From: Naegleria gruberi | Taxonomy: Eukaryota | Length of the DNA: 1,292 bases | Assembly: GCA_000004985.1 (NCBI GenBank) | Contig: GG739451.1 | Strand: one strand, 5' to 3' | Translations under genes and position numbers: made by a program | Shown: piece after piece, positions 2-1,292 of the stretch | How the letters are laid out: every line of letters starts with the position of its first letter | Position numbering within the stretch: position 1 is the stretch's first letter | The notes under the pieces: model-generated | What the model was told of the DNA's origin: nothing | Databases searched by the model: none | What the model saw: only the letters and a program-made list of their open reading frames with translations

Positions 2-22
2 AATTTAAATAATTTAAATAAT
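2..22 (+). repeat. Tandem 9-bp repeat (aatttaaat) x2.3 inside the open frame. It encodes NLN-NLN-N.
   Basis: Positions 2-10 and 11-19 are identical (aatttaaat), and 20-22 (aat) starts a third copy. Confidence 0.5.
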
Positions 23-712
23 TATGAAAATGGATTTTATTTTTTAAATAATTCAAATATTAATGAAATAATTCAAATTAAAGATGGAAATTATGAAATG
101 ATTAAAATAGGAGATTTAATTAAAACATTTGATAATAAATATTATAAAATAGATTTAATTATAGGATTAAATATAATTGGTACTGAATATAATTTATTTG
201 AAAATTTATTTAAAAAAACAAATAATGAAAATATTGAATTACCTATAAATAATGTTGAATTTAAATTATATTTAAATAATAATGAAAGAATTTATTATAT
301 TGAAAATTATAAAAATAATTTAAATTTAAATGATTTAATTAATATAAATCAAAGAAATATTAATTATTTAAAATATAATATTAATAATTTATTTAATAAT
401 CCTATTGAAAATATTAATTTATTAAAATTTAATAATTTTATTATTCAAAAAAATGATTTTATTAAAATTTTATTAAATGAAAATGAAAATGTAAATATTT
501 ATATTGGTCAATTAGTAAATTTAGTAAATGATAATTTATTTATTGAAATTTATAAAAAAATTGATCAATATTATATTACAACACATCAAATTATTTCTAT
601 TTTTGTAGCAGATATTTCACATTTAGAAAGTTTAATTGTTGTTAATGATTTGGAAAATTATAAAAATTTAAAAAAACAATTTAGAAATAATTTTATTTTA
701 ATTCAACAATAA
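2..712 (+). CDS. Hypothetical Asn/Ile/Lys/Leu-rich protein. Probably 5'-partial, with the frame open to the window edge; the alternative start is M at 98. Stop is TAA at 710-712.
   Basis: A single uninterrupted frame runs from base 2 to the TAA at 710-712. Hand translation of 2-97 gives NLNNLNNYENGFYFLNNSNINEIIQIKDGNYE with no stop. At roughly 10% GC about one random codon in ten is a stop, so 237 open codons cannot be chance. The other five frames are closed across this region. Codons are almost all A/T-ending (AAT, ATT, TTA, AAA, TAT). M98 is the only in-frame ATG before 100; the ATGs at 24, 30, 63, 84 and 93 are out of frame. Confidence 0.6.
   Translation, partial: NLNNLNNYENGFYFLNNSNINEIIQIKDGNYEMIKIGDLIKTFDNKYYKIDLIIGLNIIGTEYNLFENLFKKTNNENIELPINNVEFKLYLNNNERIYYIENYKNNLNLNDLININQRNINYLKYNINNLFNNPIENINLLKFNNFIIQKNDFIKILLNENENVNIYIGQLVNLVNDNLFIEIYKKIDQYYITTHQIISIFVADISHLESLIVVNDLENYKNLKKQFRNNFILIQQ
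46..78 (+). repeat. 13-nt direct repeat aaataattcaaat (46-58 and 66-78) with a 7-nt spacer.
   Basis: The two 13-mer copies are exact and offset by 20 nt. That offset is not a multiple of 3, so this is a DNA-level duplication, not a peptide repeat. Confidence 0.45.
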
Positions 713-786: not shown

Positions 787-1292
787 TTATAATAGGAAAA
801 TTAATACACTCAATAATAGACATGTTAATCCAAATGATACAACTTGTCTAGTACTTGCTAGAGAATTTTTCTCTTCTCCAATTATTATTACAGATTTACT
901 ACCTGGTAAAGTATTGGTTGAGTTGACTGCAATAATTCCATTAGAGGAAGTAGTAGTTTGTGGAGTTTCAACCTTCAAAATAGTACAAGAGGAAGATGAT
1001 TCCTGATTAAGTGTTGTTCCACTACCTGCTAATAATTGTGAATAACAATACTTGGTTGGCCATACGAAAATACTGAATTGACCATTATTTAAATAAGGAG
1101 TTCCACCAGTCTTTGTCTGATTATTACAATCCAAAATGAAACGTAATCTAACTTGACCTCCTCCTGTTGTAACAGCTGTCATGTTATATAATTGTCCTGG
1201 TATTGGTTTTGCCCAATTCACTTGTCTAAAACCATTTTCATTTGCATTGACCATATAAGTTCTAGTAAATGTAACATTATTTGGTGGAAATA
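787..1292 (-). CDS. Putative secreted, GPI-anchored Ser/Thr-rich surface glycoprotein, C-terminal portion only. The N-terminus lies beyond the window end. Stop is TAA, the complement of 787-789.
   Basis: The minus-strand frame stays open from 1290 down to the stop at 787-789. Hand translation upstream of the track's Met reads ...FPPNNVTFTRTY-MVNANENGF... with no stop, so M(1254) is internal. Four N-x-S/T sequons are present: NVT, NMT, NQT and NST. Cys residues sit at ORF positions 43, 70 and 90. An S/T-rich segment (ESSSSCTILKVETPQTTTSSNG...NSTNTLPGSKS) ends in the small-residue stretch NSLAS, a candidate omega site, followed by an 18-residue hydrophobic C-terminus VVSFGLTCLLLSVLIFLL with no charged tail. 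That layout is typical of a GPI-attachment signal. Codon usage is dictyostelid-like. Confidence 0.7.
   Translation of the reverse strand, partial: FPPNNVTFTRTYMVNANENGFRQVNWAKPIPGQLYNMTAVTTGGGQVRLRFILDCNNQTKTGGTPYLNNGQFSIFVWPTKYCYSQLLAGSGTTLNQESSSSCTILKVETPQTTTSSNGIIAVNSTNTLPGSKSVIIIGEEKNSLASTRQVVSFGLTCLLLSVLIFLL
790..843 (-). other. C-terminal hydrophobic GPI-anchor signal peptide region. It could alternatively be a tail-anchor transmembrane segment.
   Basis: This region encodes VVSFGLTCLLLSVLIFLL directly before the stop. It is preceded by small residues (NSLAS) and a short polar spacer (TRQ). Confidence 0.5.
892..1029 (-). other. Ser/Thr-rich, probably O-glycosylated stalk region of the surface protein.
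   Basis: Residues about 76-121 of the ORF-track protein read GSGTTLNQESSSSCTILKVETPQTTTSSNGIIAVNSTNTLPGSKS. The segment has a high S/T fraction and includes an NST sequon. Confidence 0.45.

What the first reader, a model, noticed from the sequence alone, without database searches (positions are those of the whole stretch)
787..1292. GPI-anchor-type surface glycoprotein with an ectodomain I cannot place
The C-terminal architecture is a textbook eukaryotic surface protein: an S/T-rich stalk, then small residues, then an 18-aa hydrophobic tail ending at the stop. The globular part also carries sequons and spaced cysteines. The ectodomain segment (FPPNNVTFTRTYMVNANENGFRQVNWAKPIPGQLYNMTAVTTGGGQVRLRFILDCNNQTKTGGTPYLNNGQFSIFVWPTKYCYSQ) matches no adhesion, lectin or carbohydrate-binding family that I know. 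It could belong to a lineage-specific family of cell-surface or cell-wall proteins.
Basis: partly seen in the sequence, partly recalled or inferred. Interest (0 to 1): 0.5.

Follow-up and report, generated by a model that had tools for sequence, protein, structure and literature searches.

The report
Amoeba surface protein borrowed from bacteria
The window holds the tail end of a Naegleria gruberi secreted protein whose "unplaceable" domain belongs to an unstudied bacterial family from slime (exopolysaccharide) operons, and the amoeba copy has gained a sugar-rich stalk and a probable GPI membrane anchor.

Summary
Minus-strand ORF 787-1290 encodes exactly the quoted peptide and ends in an 18-residue hydrophobic tail.

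The window is a whole 1292-bp Naegleria gruberi scaffold (NAEGRDRAFT_77074), and the scaffold end truncates the gene.

The "unplaceable ectodomain" (residues 1-108) is not lineage-specific. It is the conserved C-terminal domain of a ~470-aa secreted protein family with no Pfam, NCBIfam or PDB relative. That family is common in Burkholderiales and Rhodocyclales, where it sits in a syntenic Wzx/Wzy exopolysaccharide operon: 77 of 77 loci have EPS genes nearby. The family's N-terminal domain is homologous to Gordonia-phage minor tail proteins. In a confident AlphaFold model of a paralog, the only matches to solved structures are beta-jelly-roll carbohydrate-binding modules.

N. gruberi has at least six related gene models, which form one clade (bootstrap 98/100). 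They carry spliceosomal introns, eukaryotic signal peptides and a Naegleria-specific Cys pair. Three paralog types, including the window's, also carry a Ser/Thr stalk and a GPI-signal-like tail with a candidate omega site 24-25 residues from the end.

Best reading: a horizontally acquired, probably glycan-binding or glycan-degrading protein tethered to the amoeba surface. GPI attachment and carbohydrate activity are inferred, not shown.

The parts
787..1292 (-). 3' part of gene NAEGRDRAFT_77074 (XP_002668016.1 / UniProt D2W6N0). It encodes 167 C-terminal residues plus the stop codon. The frame is open to the scaffold end, so an estimated 340-370 N-terminal residues (signal peptide plus N-domain) are missing.
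   Evidence: The public 155-aa model starts at internal Met13 (1252-1254), which is an artefact of the truncation.
967..1290 (-). Conserved C-terminal domain of the family (residues 1-108). It is predicted all-beta and probably a beta-jelly-roll, CBM-like module.
1045..1128 (-). Naegleria-specific cysteine pair: C55 (1126-1128) and C82 (1045-1047), a putative disulfide.
   Evidence: Both are present in all six Naegleria sequences and in none of the bacterial ones. Coordinates checked. Disulfide formation is inferred.
1177..1185 (-). N-glycosylation sequon N36-M-T, conserved as YN[MLIV]T in all Naegleria paralogs.
844..966 (-). Low-complexity Ser/Thr/Asn-rich linker or 'stalk' (residues 109-149, 14 of 41 Ser/Thr). 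It is absent from bacterial homologs and from paralog P0016.
862..864 (-). Best candidate GPI omega site, S143 (omega+2 = Ala, 24-residue propeptide). The alternative is A145.
   Evidence: Rule-based check. Equivalent candidates lie at -25 (N) in P0137/P0018 and -24 (N) in P0003. This is a heuristic, not a trained predictor.
790..843 (-). C-terminal hydrophobic segment VVSFGLTCLLLSVLIFLL, ending at the stop codon (787-789).
   Evidence: It was modelled as a helix in the single-sequence AF2 run.
2..712 (+). Convergent neighbour, not part of the finding: a 236-codon open frame running off the left end. GC is 4-14% and GC3 is 0.8%. It has no homolog and no public gene model.

Best explanation
The window carries the 3' end of a Naegleria gruberi gene. 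The gene belongs to a small paralog group that descends from a bacterial gene by horizontal transfer.

The bacterial parent:
- It is a Sec-secreted protein of about 470 residues, conserved at a fixed position in a Wzx/Wzy-type exopolysaccharide operon of Burkholderiales and Rhodocyclales.
- The consensus gene order across loci is Poly_export, Wzz, kinase, GT2, Wzy_C, this gene, hexapeptide acyltransferase, GT4, GT2, WecG, flippase.
- Its ~300-residue N-terminal domain is shared with minor tail proteins of Gordonia phages.
- Its ~105-125-residue C-terminal domain is the piece encoded in the window. It is an all-beta module whose fold resembles carbohydrate-binding modules.

Proposed mechanism:
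- The protein enters the secretory pathway.
- The C-domain binds a polysaccharide, most likely a bacterial exopolysaccharide.
- The missing N-domain cleaves or grips that polysaccharide, as operon-encoded EPS glycanases and phage tail depolymerases do.
- In Naegleria the Ser/Thr stalk holds the domains away from the membrane.
- The C-terminal signal is exchanged for a GPI anchor (omega near S143). The protein would then be displayed on the amoeba surface and phagosome lumen, where prey bacteria and their matrix are met.

Shown:
- Family membership and the bacterial distribution with its synteny.
- Homology of the N-domain to phage tail proteins.
- Eukaryotic features of the paralogs (introns, signal peptides, Cys pair).
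- The tail architecture.

Inferred:
- That the CBM-like structure matches fall on the C-domain.
- Carbohydrate binding or cleavage.
- GPI attachment.
- That this truncated gene has the N-domain and a signal peptide.
- The prey-related role.
For: - Identity of the window: a 100% match to N. gruberi XP_002668016.1 on a 1292-bp contig.
- Homologs: an exhaustive HMMER search found 15 hits. A profile search found 263, typically 46-55% identical over ~460 aa between Naegleria and bacteria.
- Naegleria paralogs: P0016/P0135 have a signal peptide and no tail. P0137/P0018 and P0003 have a stalk plus tail.
- Introns: two GT..AG introns lie in a P0137-like gene on contig L001, one of them inside the signal peptide.
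- Phylogeny: the Naegleria sequences, including the window, are monophyletic with NJ bootstrap 98/100.
- Naegleria-only features: the Cys pair and the conserved sequon.
- Phage link: the N-domain matches phage minor tail proteins by structure (Foldseek E = 1e-19; TM 0.61 for a 340-aa phage protein) and by sequence (PHROG 17388 E = 1e-16; BLASTP 27% identity, E = 5e-14; 69 Gordonia phages).
- Bacterial context: four loci were inspected with Pfam labels, three of them inside EPS clusters. In 77 of 77 species loci, EPS genes lie within 10 kb: WecG in 64, GT2 in 60, Wzy_C in 56, and a hexapeptide acyltransferase within 500 bp in 42, in conserved order.
- GPI-type geometry is conserved across three divergent tails.
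Against: - No biochemical data exist for any member, and no paper mentions the family or these genes.
- No sequence-level link to any CAZy/Pfam CBM or glycoside hydrolase family was found.
- The N-domain has no solved structural relative, so 'glycanase' rests on context only.
- The fold tools do not report which residues aligned. Assigning the CBM-like hits to the C-domain rests on its size and strand pattern.
- The window gene is truncated, sits on a tiny scaffold next to a compositionally bizarre ORF, and is the longest branch in its clade (46-52% identity to paralogs, which are 61-67% identical to each other).
- The polar spacer before the tail is short: 4 residues if omega = S143.
- The GPI machinery of Naegleria was not checked here.
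Confidence: 0.6

Rival explanations
1. Same protein family, but the hydrophobic C-terminus is a permanent single-pass membrane anchor (a type I protein with essentially no cytoplasmic tail), not a cleaved GPI signal.
For: The 18-residue segment is long and hydrophobic enough to be modelled as a helix. The polar spacer between the best omega candidate and the hydrophobic run is only 4 residues. No trained GPI predictor could be run.
Against: All three paralog tails end directly in hydrophobic residues, with no basic stop-transfer or cytosolic residues. The hydrophobic runs are only 15-18 aa. Each is preceded at -24/-25 by a small-residue motif (S-L-A, N-D-A, N-S-S), although the linker sequences are otherwise unrelated. 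From my own knowledge, this is the classical GPI-signal layout rather than that of a plasma-membrane transmembrane domain.
Confidence: 0.22
2. The window is a non-functional gene fragment or an assembly artefact: a decaying partial duplicate, or a chimeric clone on a 1.3-kb orphan scaffold. On this view its features have no present function.
For: The scaffold is only 1292 bp. Composition jumps from 4-14% GC to 33-37% GC at about 720-790. GC3 of the gene is lower than in a paralog (15.6% vs 22.8%). It is the longest branch in the Naegleria clade. No second copy of the locus was found.
Against: The frame is intact over 167 codons. The sequence keeps all 8 invariant positions of the 30-sequence C-domain alignment A5 and has the consensus residue at all 10 nearly invariant positions it covers. 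It also keeps the Naegleria-specific Cys pair, the conserved sequon and a complete stalk-plus-tail. That pattern indicates purifying selection.
Confidence: 0.1
3. The C-terminal domain is not a carbohydrate-binding module. It could instead be a generic beta-sandwich used for oligomerisation, protein binding or stabilising the N-domain, and the family could act on something other than polysaccharide.
Against: The best-ranked structure matches are mostly bona fide CBMs or glycan-binding modules. The family is fixed inside EPS operons in 77 of 77 loci. The N-domain is shared with phage tail proteins. The two conserved tryptophans (W26, W77) fit a sugar-binding platform, which is an inference.
Confidence: 0.25
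4. The scaffold is bacterial contamination of the Naegleria assembly rather than amoeba DNA.
For: The family is otherwise almost entirely bacterial, and tiny scaffolds are where contaminants usually sit.
Against: The sequence groups with N. gruberi paralogs located on 138-696-kb scaffolds. It shares their Cys pair, sequon, stalk and tail, all of which bacteria lack. A paralog has spliceosomal introns. GC3 of 16% is far from the codon usage expected of Burkholderiales, which are GC-rich as far as I know.
Confidence: 0.02

Closest known systems
Uncharacterised bacterial secreted-protein family, annotated by NCBI as 'Atrophin-1 multi-domain protein' (e.g. Aromatoleum toluvorans, Massilia aurea, Herbaspirillum robiniae; Azoarcus sp. 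KH32C 'hypothetical protein')
   Same: There is direct sequence homology over the whole window domain (33-41% identity), and the Naegleria full-length paralogs are 46-55% identical to bacterial members. All conserved residues are kept, and the two-domain layout is the same in the full-length paralogs.
   Different: The bacterial proteins end right after the C-domain. They lack the Cys pair, the Ser/Thr stalk and the hydrophobic tail, have Sec signal peptides and lie in EPS operons. The NCBI name has no support from Pfam, and no function is published.
Naegleria gruberi paralogs NAEGRDRAFT_64348/68484, 71236 and 68901/75935
   Same: They form one clade with the window gene (bootstrap 98/100) and share the Cys pair and sequon. 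64348/68484 and 71236 share the stalk plus GPI-like tail.
   Different: The window protein is the most divergent member (46-52% identity). It has 3-aa and 2-aa insertions and an extra Cys. 68901/75935 have no stalk or tail and so are probably soluble secreted forms.
Beta-jelly-roll carbohydrate-binding modules (CBM16, CBM4/9, CBM22, CBM6/36, CBM61, CBM70)
   Different: There is no detectable sequence relationship (8-17% identity in structural alignments; no Pfam or PDB sequence hit). Ligand binding is untested, and the domain attribution of the hits is inferred.
Gordonia-phage minor tail proteins (PHROG 17388; e.g. phage Guacamole gp30, phage Guillaume)
   Same: These are homologous to the family's N-terminal domain (27% identity, E = 5e-14). 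Shared motifs include GSDG, GxRA, IRxHE, HAL, a conserved Asp in YGxxVxD, and xVE.
   Different: The relationship concerns the part of the protein that is NOT in the window. The phage proteins are 750-1000 aa with other flanking domains and have no assigned activity.
Operon-encoded exopolysaccharide glycanases and lyases (PslG, BcsZ, AlgL, PelA hydrolase domain) and GPI-anchored glycan-active surface proteins of eukaryotes (e.g. fungal Gas/Crh, X325 LPMO-like proteins); named from my own knowledge
   Same: The analogy is functional. These are secreted proteins encoded inside polysaccharide-synthesis operons, and in eukaryotes, glycan-active domains carried on a Ser/Thr stalk with a GPI signal.
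   Different: There is no sequence or fold relationship to any of them, so this is an analogy and not membership.

Membership tests
Bacterial/Naegleria EPS-operon secreted protein family ('Atrophin-1 multi-domain protein' in NCBI naming) | Significant sequence homology of the C-terminal domain | tested here: met
   phmmer gave E = 1.3e-22 (P0002), 1.3e-19 (P0003) and 1e-7 to 8e-4 for bacterial or metagenomic members. The profile search gave 263 hits.
Bacterial/Naegleria EPS-operon secreted protein family ('Atrophin-1 multi-domain protein' in NCBI naming) | Conserved residues of the C-domain (W26, G32, T42-G43-G44, R48, W77-P78, S90-G91, S98) | tested here: met
   All are present in the window protein (alignments A2 and A5).
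Bacterial/Naegleria EPS-operon secreted protein family ('Atrophin-1 multi-domain protein' in NCBI naming) | N-terminal ~300-aa domain (PFxxxSxWNSRPV, DGH, IRKHE and HAL motifs) preceded by a signal peptide | not testable with these tools
   The ORF runs off the scaffold end at 1292, and no longer copy was found. Paralogs P0016, P0135 and P0137 have both features.
GPI-anchored proteins | C-terminal hydrophobic segment of about 15-20 residues ending at the C-terminus, with no cytosolic residues after it | tested here: met
   VVSFGLTCLLLSVLIFLL is 18 aa with mean hydropathy 2.73, and the stop codon follows directly.
GPI-anchored proteins | Omega site: small residues at omega and omega+2, a short polar spacer, and a propeptide of about 20-30 aa | tested here: inconclusive
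   A rule-based scan finds S143 (S-L-A, 24-aa propeptide, 4-residue polar spacer) or A145. Matching candidates lie at -25/-24 in the paralogs. No trained predictor (NetGPI, PredGPI, big-PI) was available.
GPI-anchored proteins | N-terminal ER signal peptide | not testable with these tools
   The N-terminus is missing. By proxy, paralog P0137, which has the same tail, begins MNNLFTVKLSVMLLLSVIYMF....
GPI-anchored proteins | Organism has GPI transamidase, and the protein is experimentally lipid-anchored | not tested
   One paper reports evidence of GPI-anchored proteins in Naegleria genomes (PMC9928731), and the abstract of PMC9098846 calls GPI-T conserved among eukaryotes. I did not check the N. 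gruberi genes myself.
Carbohydrate-binding modules (beta-jelly-roll CBMs) | Beta-sandwich or jelly-roll fold | tested here: met
Carbohydrate-binding modules (beta-jelly-roll CBMs) | Sequence membership in a described CBM family | tested here: not met
   No Pfam hit for the window protein. Among 30 C-domains scanned at E up to 10, none hit a CBM family and at most three members hit any one family, none significantly. There was no PDB sequence hit.
Carbohydrate-binding modules (beta-jelly-roll CBMs) | Demonstrated carbohydrate binding | not testable with these tools
   This needs glycan arrays, affinity gels or ITC.
Known glycoside hydrolase / polysaccharide lyase families | Sequence or fold match of the catalytic domain | tested here: not met
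   For the full-length paralogs and bacterial members there was no Pfam, NCBIfam or PDB sequence match. No PDB fold match covered the N-domain. That domain is not in the window.
Tail-anchored (cytosol-facing) membrane proteins | No signal peptide, with the bulk of the protein cytosolic | tested here: not met
   Paralogs with the same tail have a signal peptide. The whole family is secreted in bacteria (Sec signal peptides). The Naegleria-specific Cys pair and conserved sequon point to a lumenal or extracellular location.

The most novel reading that the evidence does not exclude
A bacterivorous amoeba captured a gene from the exopolysaccharide operon of its Burkholderiales prey. The gene encodes the founding member of an undescribed polysaccharide-depolymerase family that Gordonia phages also use in their tails. 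The amoeba duplicated it and added a mucin-like stalk and a GPI anchor, so that it now carries a biofilm-matrix-binding or matrix-degrading enzyme on its feeding surface.
Probability: 0.3. Interest if true: 0.65.

Novelty: new variant of a known kind. Interest (0 to 1): 0.5.

Why it matters
If the reading is right, three things follow.

1. A protein that is fixed in the exopolysaccharide operons of many freshwater and soil Betaproteobacteria (Roseateles/Mitsuaria, Massilia, Duganella, Herbaspirillum, Herminiimonas, Aromatoleum, Azoarcus) has no Pfam, PDB or literature record. It is a good candidate for a new glycan-active enzyme family with its own CBM-like module.

2. Its presence in phage tail proteins and in an amoeba links three kinds of "users" of bacterial surface polysaccharide: the producer, the phage and the predator.

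3. The Naegleria copies show step by step how a bacterial gene is made eukaryotic, through introns, an ER signal peptide, a disulfide, a glycosylation site, a stalk and a GPI-type signal. They also include both soluble and tethered paralogs for comparison.

For the window taken alone, the result is more modest. It is a truncated, divergent member of that group, and its public gene model has a wrong start.

Tried and rejected
- **Pfam on the window protein.** Only a sub-threshold Big_1 hit in the stalk region (E = 0.056). Rejected as noise.
- **NCBIfam, PHROGs and PDB sequence searches** with the window protein or the C-domain profile found nothing.
- **Single-sequence AlphaFold of the window fragment** was unusable (pLDDT 45). 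I therefore modelled paralog P0016 with a 75-sequence alignment instead.
- **Exact-protein look-ups** for P0001, P0018 and P0016 found no contig.
- **A metagenome scan** for a longer copy of the window gene found none. The gene's own N-terminus could therefore not be recovered.
- **The afdb50 fold library** was unavailable.
- **Foldseek rank 1 in PDB** (endo-alpha-D-arabinanase 8ic1, TM 0.18, rmsd 20 A) was rejected as a spurious long alignment.
- **Bacterial contamination** was rejected.
- **A tail-anchored cytosolic protein** was rejected by proxy from the paralog signal peptides.
- **The left-hand ultra-AT-rich ORF** has no protein homolog and no viral relative. Only a weak Peptidase_M99_C hit below the curated cut-off appeared. 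It is left unexplained.
- **Literature searches** for the family name, for the gene identifiers and for the Naegleria GPI machinery gave nothing specific.
Full report
**1. What is in the window**

The 1292-bp window has two convergent open frames separated by 74 bp.
- The frame is still open at the right edge of the window. The two leftover bases (TA) fit a preceding Val, Leu or Ile codon.
- A protein search returned one 100% match: the 155-aa model XP_002668016.1 / EFC35272.1 / D2W6N0, "predicted protein NAEGRDRAFT_77074" of Naegleria gruberi, whose only contig is 1292 bp long.

The window is therefore a complete orphan scaffold of that assembly. The gene is cut by the scaffold end, and the public model's start (Met13 of my fragment) is an artefact.

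**2. Checking the observation**

- The last 18 residues (VVSFGLTCLLLSVLIFLL, 790-843) are uncharged, have a mean hydropathy of 2.73 and run straight into the stop.
- Before them lies a 41-residue low-complexity linker with 14 Ser/Thr (844-966).
- The four N-x-S/T sequons are no more than the composition predicts: shuffles gave 3.4 +/- 1.6, p = 0.47.

**3. The ectodomain does have relatives**

The word-indexed search saw only the protein itself. The exhaustive HMMER scan of 1.8 billion representatives found 15 hits.
- Two N. gruberi proteins scored E = 1e-22 and 1e-19.
- The other hits above noise were short or ~470-aa proteins, all aligned through their C-terminal ~105 residues. Two further hits (P0006, P0009) matched only short stretches and were set aside.
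- A profile built from these retrieved 263 proteins.
- Most came from metagenomes. Named ones came from Massilia, Duganella, Herbaspirillum, Aromatoleum and Azoarcus, labelled by NCBI "Atrophin-1 multi-domain protein" or "hypothetical".
- None of the 120 listed hits has a precomputed Pfam domain, and direct scans found no significant Pfam or NCBIfam match in the members tested.
- A profile search of all PDB sequences found nothing.
- No paper uses the family name or the Naegleria gene identifiers.

Residues 1-108 of the window protein align along the whole conserved C-domain. They keep every invariant or nearly invariant position: W26, G32, T42-G43-G44, R48, W77-P78, S90-G91 and S98.

**4. The Naegleria paralogs**

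N. gruberi has at least six further gene models of the family:
- 68901 and 75935 (462 aa). Signal peptide MFKVILAITFCYLAAA…, ending right after the C-domain.
- 64348 (535 aa). Signal peptide MNNLFTVKLSVMLLLSVIYMF…, N-domain, C-domain, Ser/Thr/Asn stalk and tail …LPNVLIVLVLIILSFLYL.
- 68484. The same gene type as 64348, modelled without its first exon.
- 71236 (949 aa). The family part starts near residue 445, and it has its own stalk and tail.
- 77084. A fragment on another tiny scaffold.

A metagenome contig carrying a 64348-like gene (L001) shows two canonical GT..AG introns. One lies inside the signal peptide and one splits the DGH|CEI motif. These are therefore true eukaryotic genes.

All Naegleria sequences, and no bacterial ones, have a cysteine pair (window C55 and C82) and the sequon YN[MLIV]T.

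In neighbour-joining trees the Naegleria sequences, including the window's, form one clade within the bacterial diversity. Bootstrap support is 98/100 on the C-domain. The window protein is the longest branch: it is 46-52% identical to its paralogs, which are 61-67% identical to each other.

A single transfer from bacteria into the Naegleria lineage, followed by duplication, is the simplest reading.

**5. Fold**

The single-sequence model of the window fragment failed (pLDDT 45). Paralog P0016, modelled with 75 homologs, gave pLDDT 86.4 and pTM 0.86. Its last ~125 residues contain ten beta-strands.

- Asp3/Gap3 and Cry-toxin domain III.
- Each match covered 100-120 aligned residues.
- Nothing covered the ~300-residue N-domain.

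The tools do not print the aligned ranges. I infer from size and strand pattern that these hits belong to the C-domain. At sequence level there is no link to any CBM family.

**6. The N-domain (not in the window) and phages**

- Against predicted viral structures, the model matched Gordonia-phage "minor tail proteins" and an uncultured-phage protein over ~330 columns (E = 1e-19 to 7e-14; TM 0.61 normalised to the 340-aa phage protein).
- PHROG 17388 (minor tail protein) hits family members at E = 1e-10 to 1e-16.
- tblastn finds 69 Gordonia phages.
- BLASTP aligns P0016 residues 25-305 with Guacamole gp30 residues 252-520 at 27% identity, E = 5e-14.
- Shared motifs include GSDG, GxRA, IRxHE, HAL, a conserved Asp in YGxxVxD, and xVE.
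- The phage protein itself has no Pfam domain.

**7. Bacterial genomic context**

Four loci were inspected with precomputed Pfam labels.
- In Azoarcus sp. KH32C the gene overlaps by 4 bp the end of a Wzy_C polymerase gene. It is followed by a hexapeptide acyltransferase, GT4, GT2 and WecG genes, with Poly_export, Wzz/GNVR and a ParA-like kinase upstream.
- In Herbaspirillum robiniae and Massilia aurea it lies in comparable clusters, the former with exosortase EpsH/EpsI.
- A fourth locus is not in such a cluster.

A scan of one genome per species found 147 relatives, nearly all in Burkholderiales and Rhodocyclales. The best match to a Naegleria protein was an Aquabacterium MAG at 57% identity.

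In the 77 loci retrieved:
- every one has an EPS-type gene within 10 kb;
- WecG occurs in 64, GT2 in 60, Wzy_C in 56, GT4 in 55, Wzz in 42, flippase in 38 and Poly_export in 36;
- the hexapeptide acyltransferase lies within 500 bp, nearly always downstream and on the same strand, in 42 loci;
- gene order is conserved.

The family is thus a fixed, Sec-secreted component of a Wzx/Wzy exopolysaccharide operon.

**8. Mechanism proposed**

From my own knowledge, EPS operons commonly encode a secreted glycanase or lyase acting on their own polymer (PslG, BcsZ, AlgL, PelA), and phage tail proteins commonly carry depolymerases for host surface polysaccharide.

A secreted two-domain protein that is fixed in such an operon, shares its large domain with phage tail proteins and ends in a CBM-like beta-sandwich is best explained in this way:
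- it is a polysaccharide-binding and probably polysaccharide-cleaving protein;
- the window's domain is the binding module.

This step is inference. No catalytic residues can be assigned, and the N-domain has no solved relative.

**9. The Naegleria additions and the GPI question**

Bacterial proteins end a few residues after the C-domain. Three Naegleria paralog types, including the window's, add a Ser/Thr-rich linker and a terminal hydrophobic run of 15-18 residues with nothing after it.

A rule-based scan finds a small-residue motif at a constant distance from the C-terminus:
- S-L-A at -25 in the window (S143);
- N-D-A at -25 in 64348/68484;
- N-S-S at -24 in 71236.

The linkers are otherwise unalignable. 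That conservation of geometry, the absence of any cytosolic residues and the signal peptide of the full-length tailed paralog all fit a GPI attachment signal.

The points against are the short polar spacer in the window protein (four residues) and the lack of a trained predictor here. A plain C-terminal membrane anchor remains a live rival at about 0.2. I did not verify the Naegleria GPI machinery. One paper notes evidence of GPI-anchored proteins in Naegleria genomes (PMC9928731).

Either way the protein would be tethered to the outer face of the plasma or phagosomal membrane. The tail-less paralogs (68901/75935) would be released.

**10. Verdict**

- The GPI-type architecture is supported but unproven.
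- The claim of an unplaceable, lineage-specific ectodomain is not supported. The domain belongs to a large, uncharacterised bacterial family and probably has a CBM-like fold.
- The finding is a new variant of known kinds of things: a horizontally acquired, secreted glycan-active protein, and a GPI-type surface glycoprotein. It is built on a protein family that nobody has described.
- Interest is moderate for the window itself and higher for the family it points to.

**11. Unexplained**

The other half of the scaffold (2-712, plus strand) is a 236-codon open frame with 4-14% GC and GC3 of 0.8%.
- It is far longer than any open frame in shuffled sequence (maximum 111 codons).
- It is rich in Asn, Ile and Leu.
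- It has no homolog, no public gene model and no viral relative.
- A normal Naegleria neighbour gene on L001 has 33-38% GC.

Whether this is a real neighbour, an odd mobile element or a chimeric clone could not be decided.

Noticed in passing
window 2-712 (+): A 236-codon open frame runs off the left end. It has extreme AT bias (GC 4-14%, GC3 0.8%; Asn 54, Ile 39, Leu 28 of 236; no Trp or Cys). The longest open frame in 2000 shuffles was 111 codons. It has no homolog among 5.8 billion proteins (not even a public model of itself), no viral relative, and only a sub-threshold Pfam hit. The composition jumps to 33-37% GC at about 720-790.
   Followed up: partly
window 1252-1254 (-), Met13 of the fragment: The public gene model XP_002668016.1 (155 aa) starts at an internal Met only because the scaffold ends. 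Homolog alignments show the domain starts upstream and that some 340-370 residues are missing.
   Followed up: yes
P0003 = NAEGRDRAFT_71236 (949 aa): Only residues ~445-949 belong to the family. The first ~440 residues align to nothing in the family, so this looks like a fused or over-extended gene model.
   Followed up: partly
L001 465-509 and 846-926; P0018 vs P0137: Two GT..AG introns lie in a 64348-like gene on an ENA metagenome contig, one inside the signal peptide. Model NAEGRDRAFT_68484 (P0018) lacks that first exon and therefore appears to have no signal peptide.
   Followed up: yes
L003 6640-10082; 77 bacterial loci L008-L084: In Azoarcus sp. KH32C the family gene's start overlaps the Wzy_C polymerase stop by 4 bp. 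Across species a hexapeptide acyltransferase follows within 500 bp in 42 of 77 loci. The gene order Poly_export, Wzz, kinase, GT2, Wzy_C, family gene, Hexapep, GT4, GT2, WecG, flippase is conserved. The NCBI name 'Atrophin-1 multi-domain protein' has no domain support.
   Followed up: yes
L002 3236-5527 (Gordonia phage Guacamole gp30) and 68 other Gordonia phages: Minor tail proteins of Gordonia phages contain a domain homologous to the family's N-domain (27% identity, E = 5e-14). No Pfam domain or function is assigned to it.
   Followed up: partly
P0002 = NAEGRDRAFT_77084, on a 1253-bp scaffold: A second tiny N. gruberi scaffold carries a fragment nearly identical to the C-terminal part of NAEGRDRAFT_68901, with a doubtful modelled N-terminus. 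Orphan scaffolds of this assembly seem to collect pieces of this gene family, possibly as haplotype variants.
   Followed up: no
P0004, P0007, P0011-P0013, P0015: Short bacterial or metagenomic proteins consist of little more than the C-domain. One has a signal-peptide- or TM-like N-terminus. They may be fragments, or evidence that the domain also occurs as a stand-alone module.
   Followed up: no
L001 2189-2710 (-): The convergent neighbour of the 64348-like Naegleria gene contains a fibrinogen-related-like motif (…CNMNDGGWTLL…) and has normal GC content. It is unrelated to the window's left ORF.
   Followed up: no
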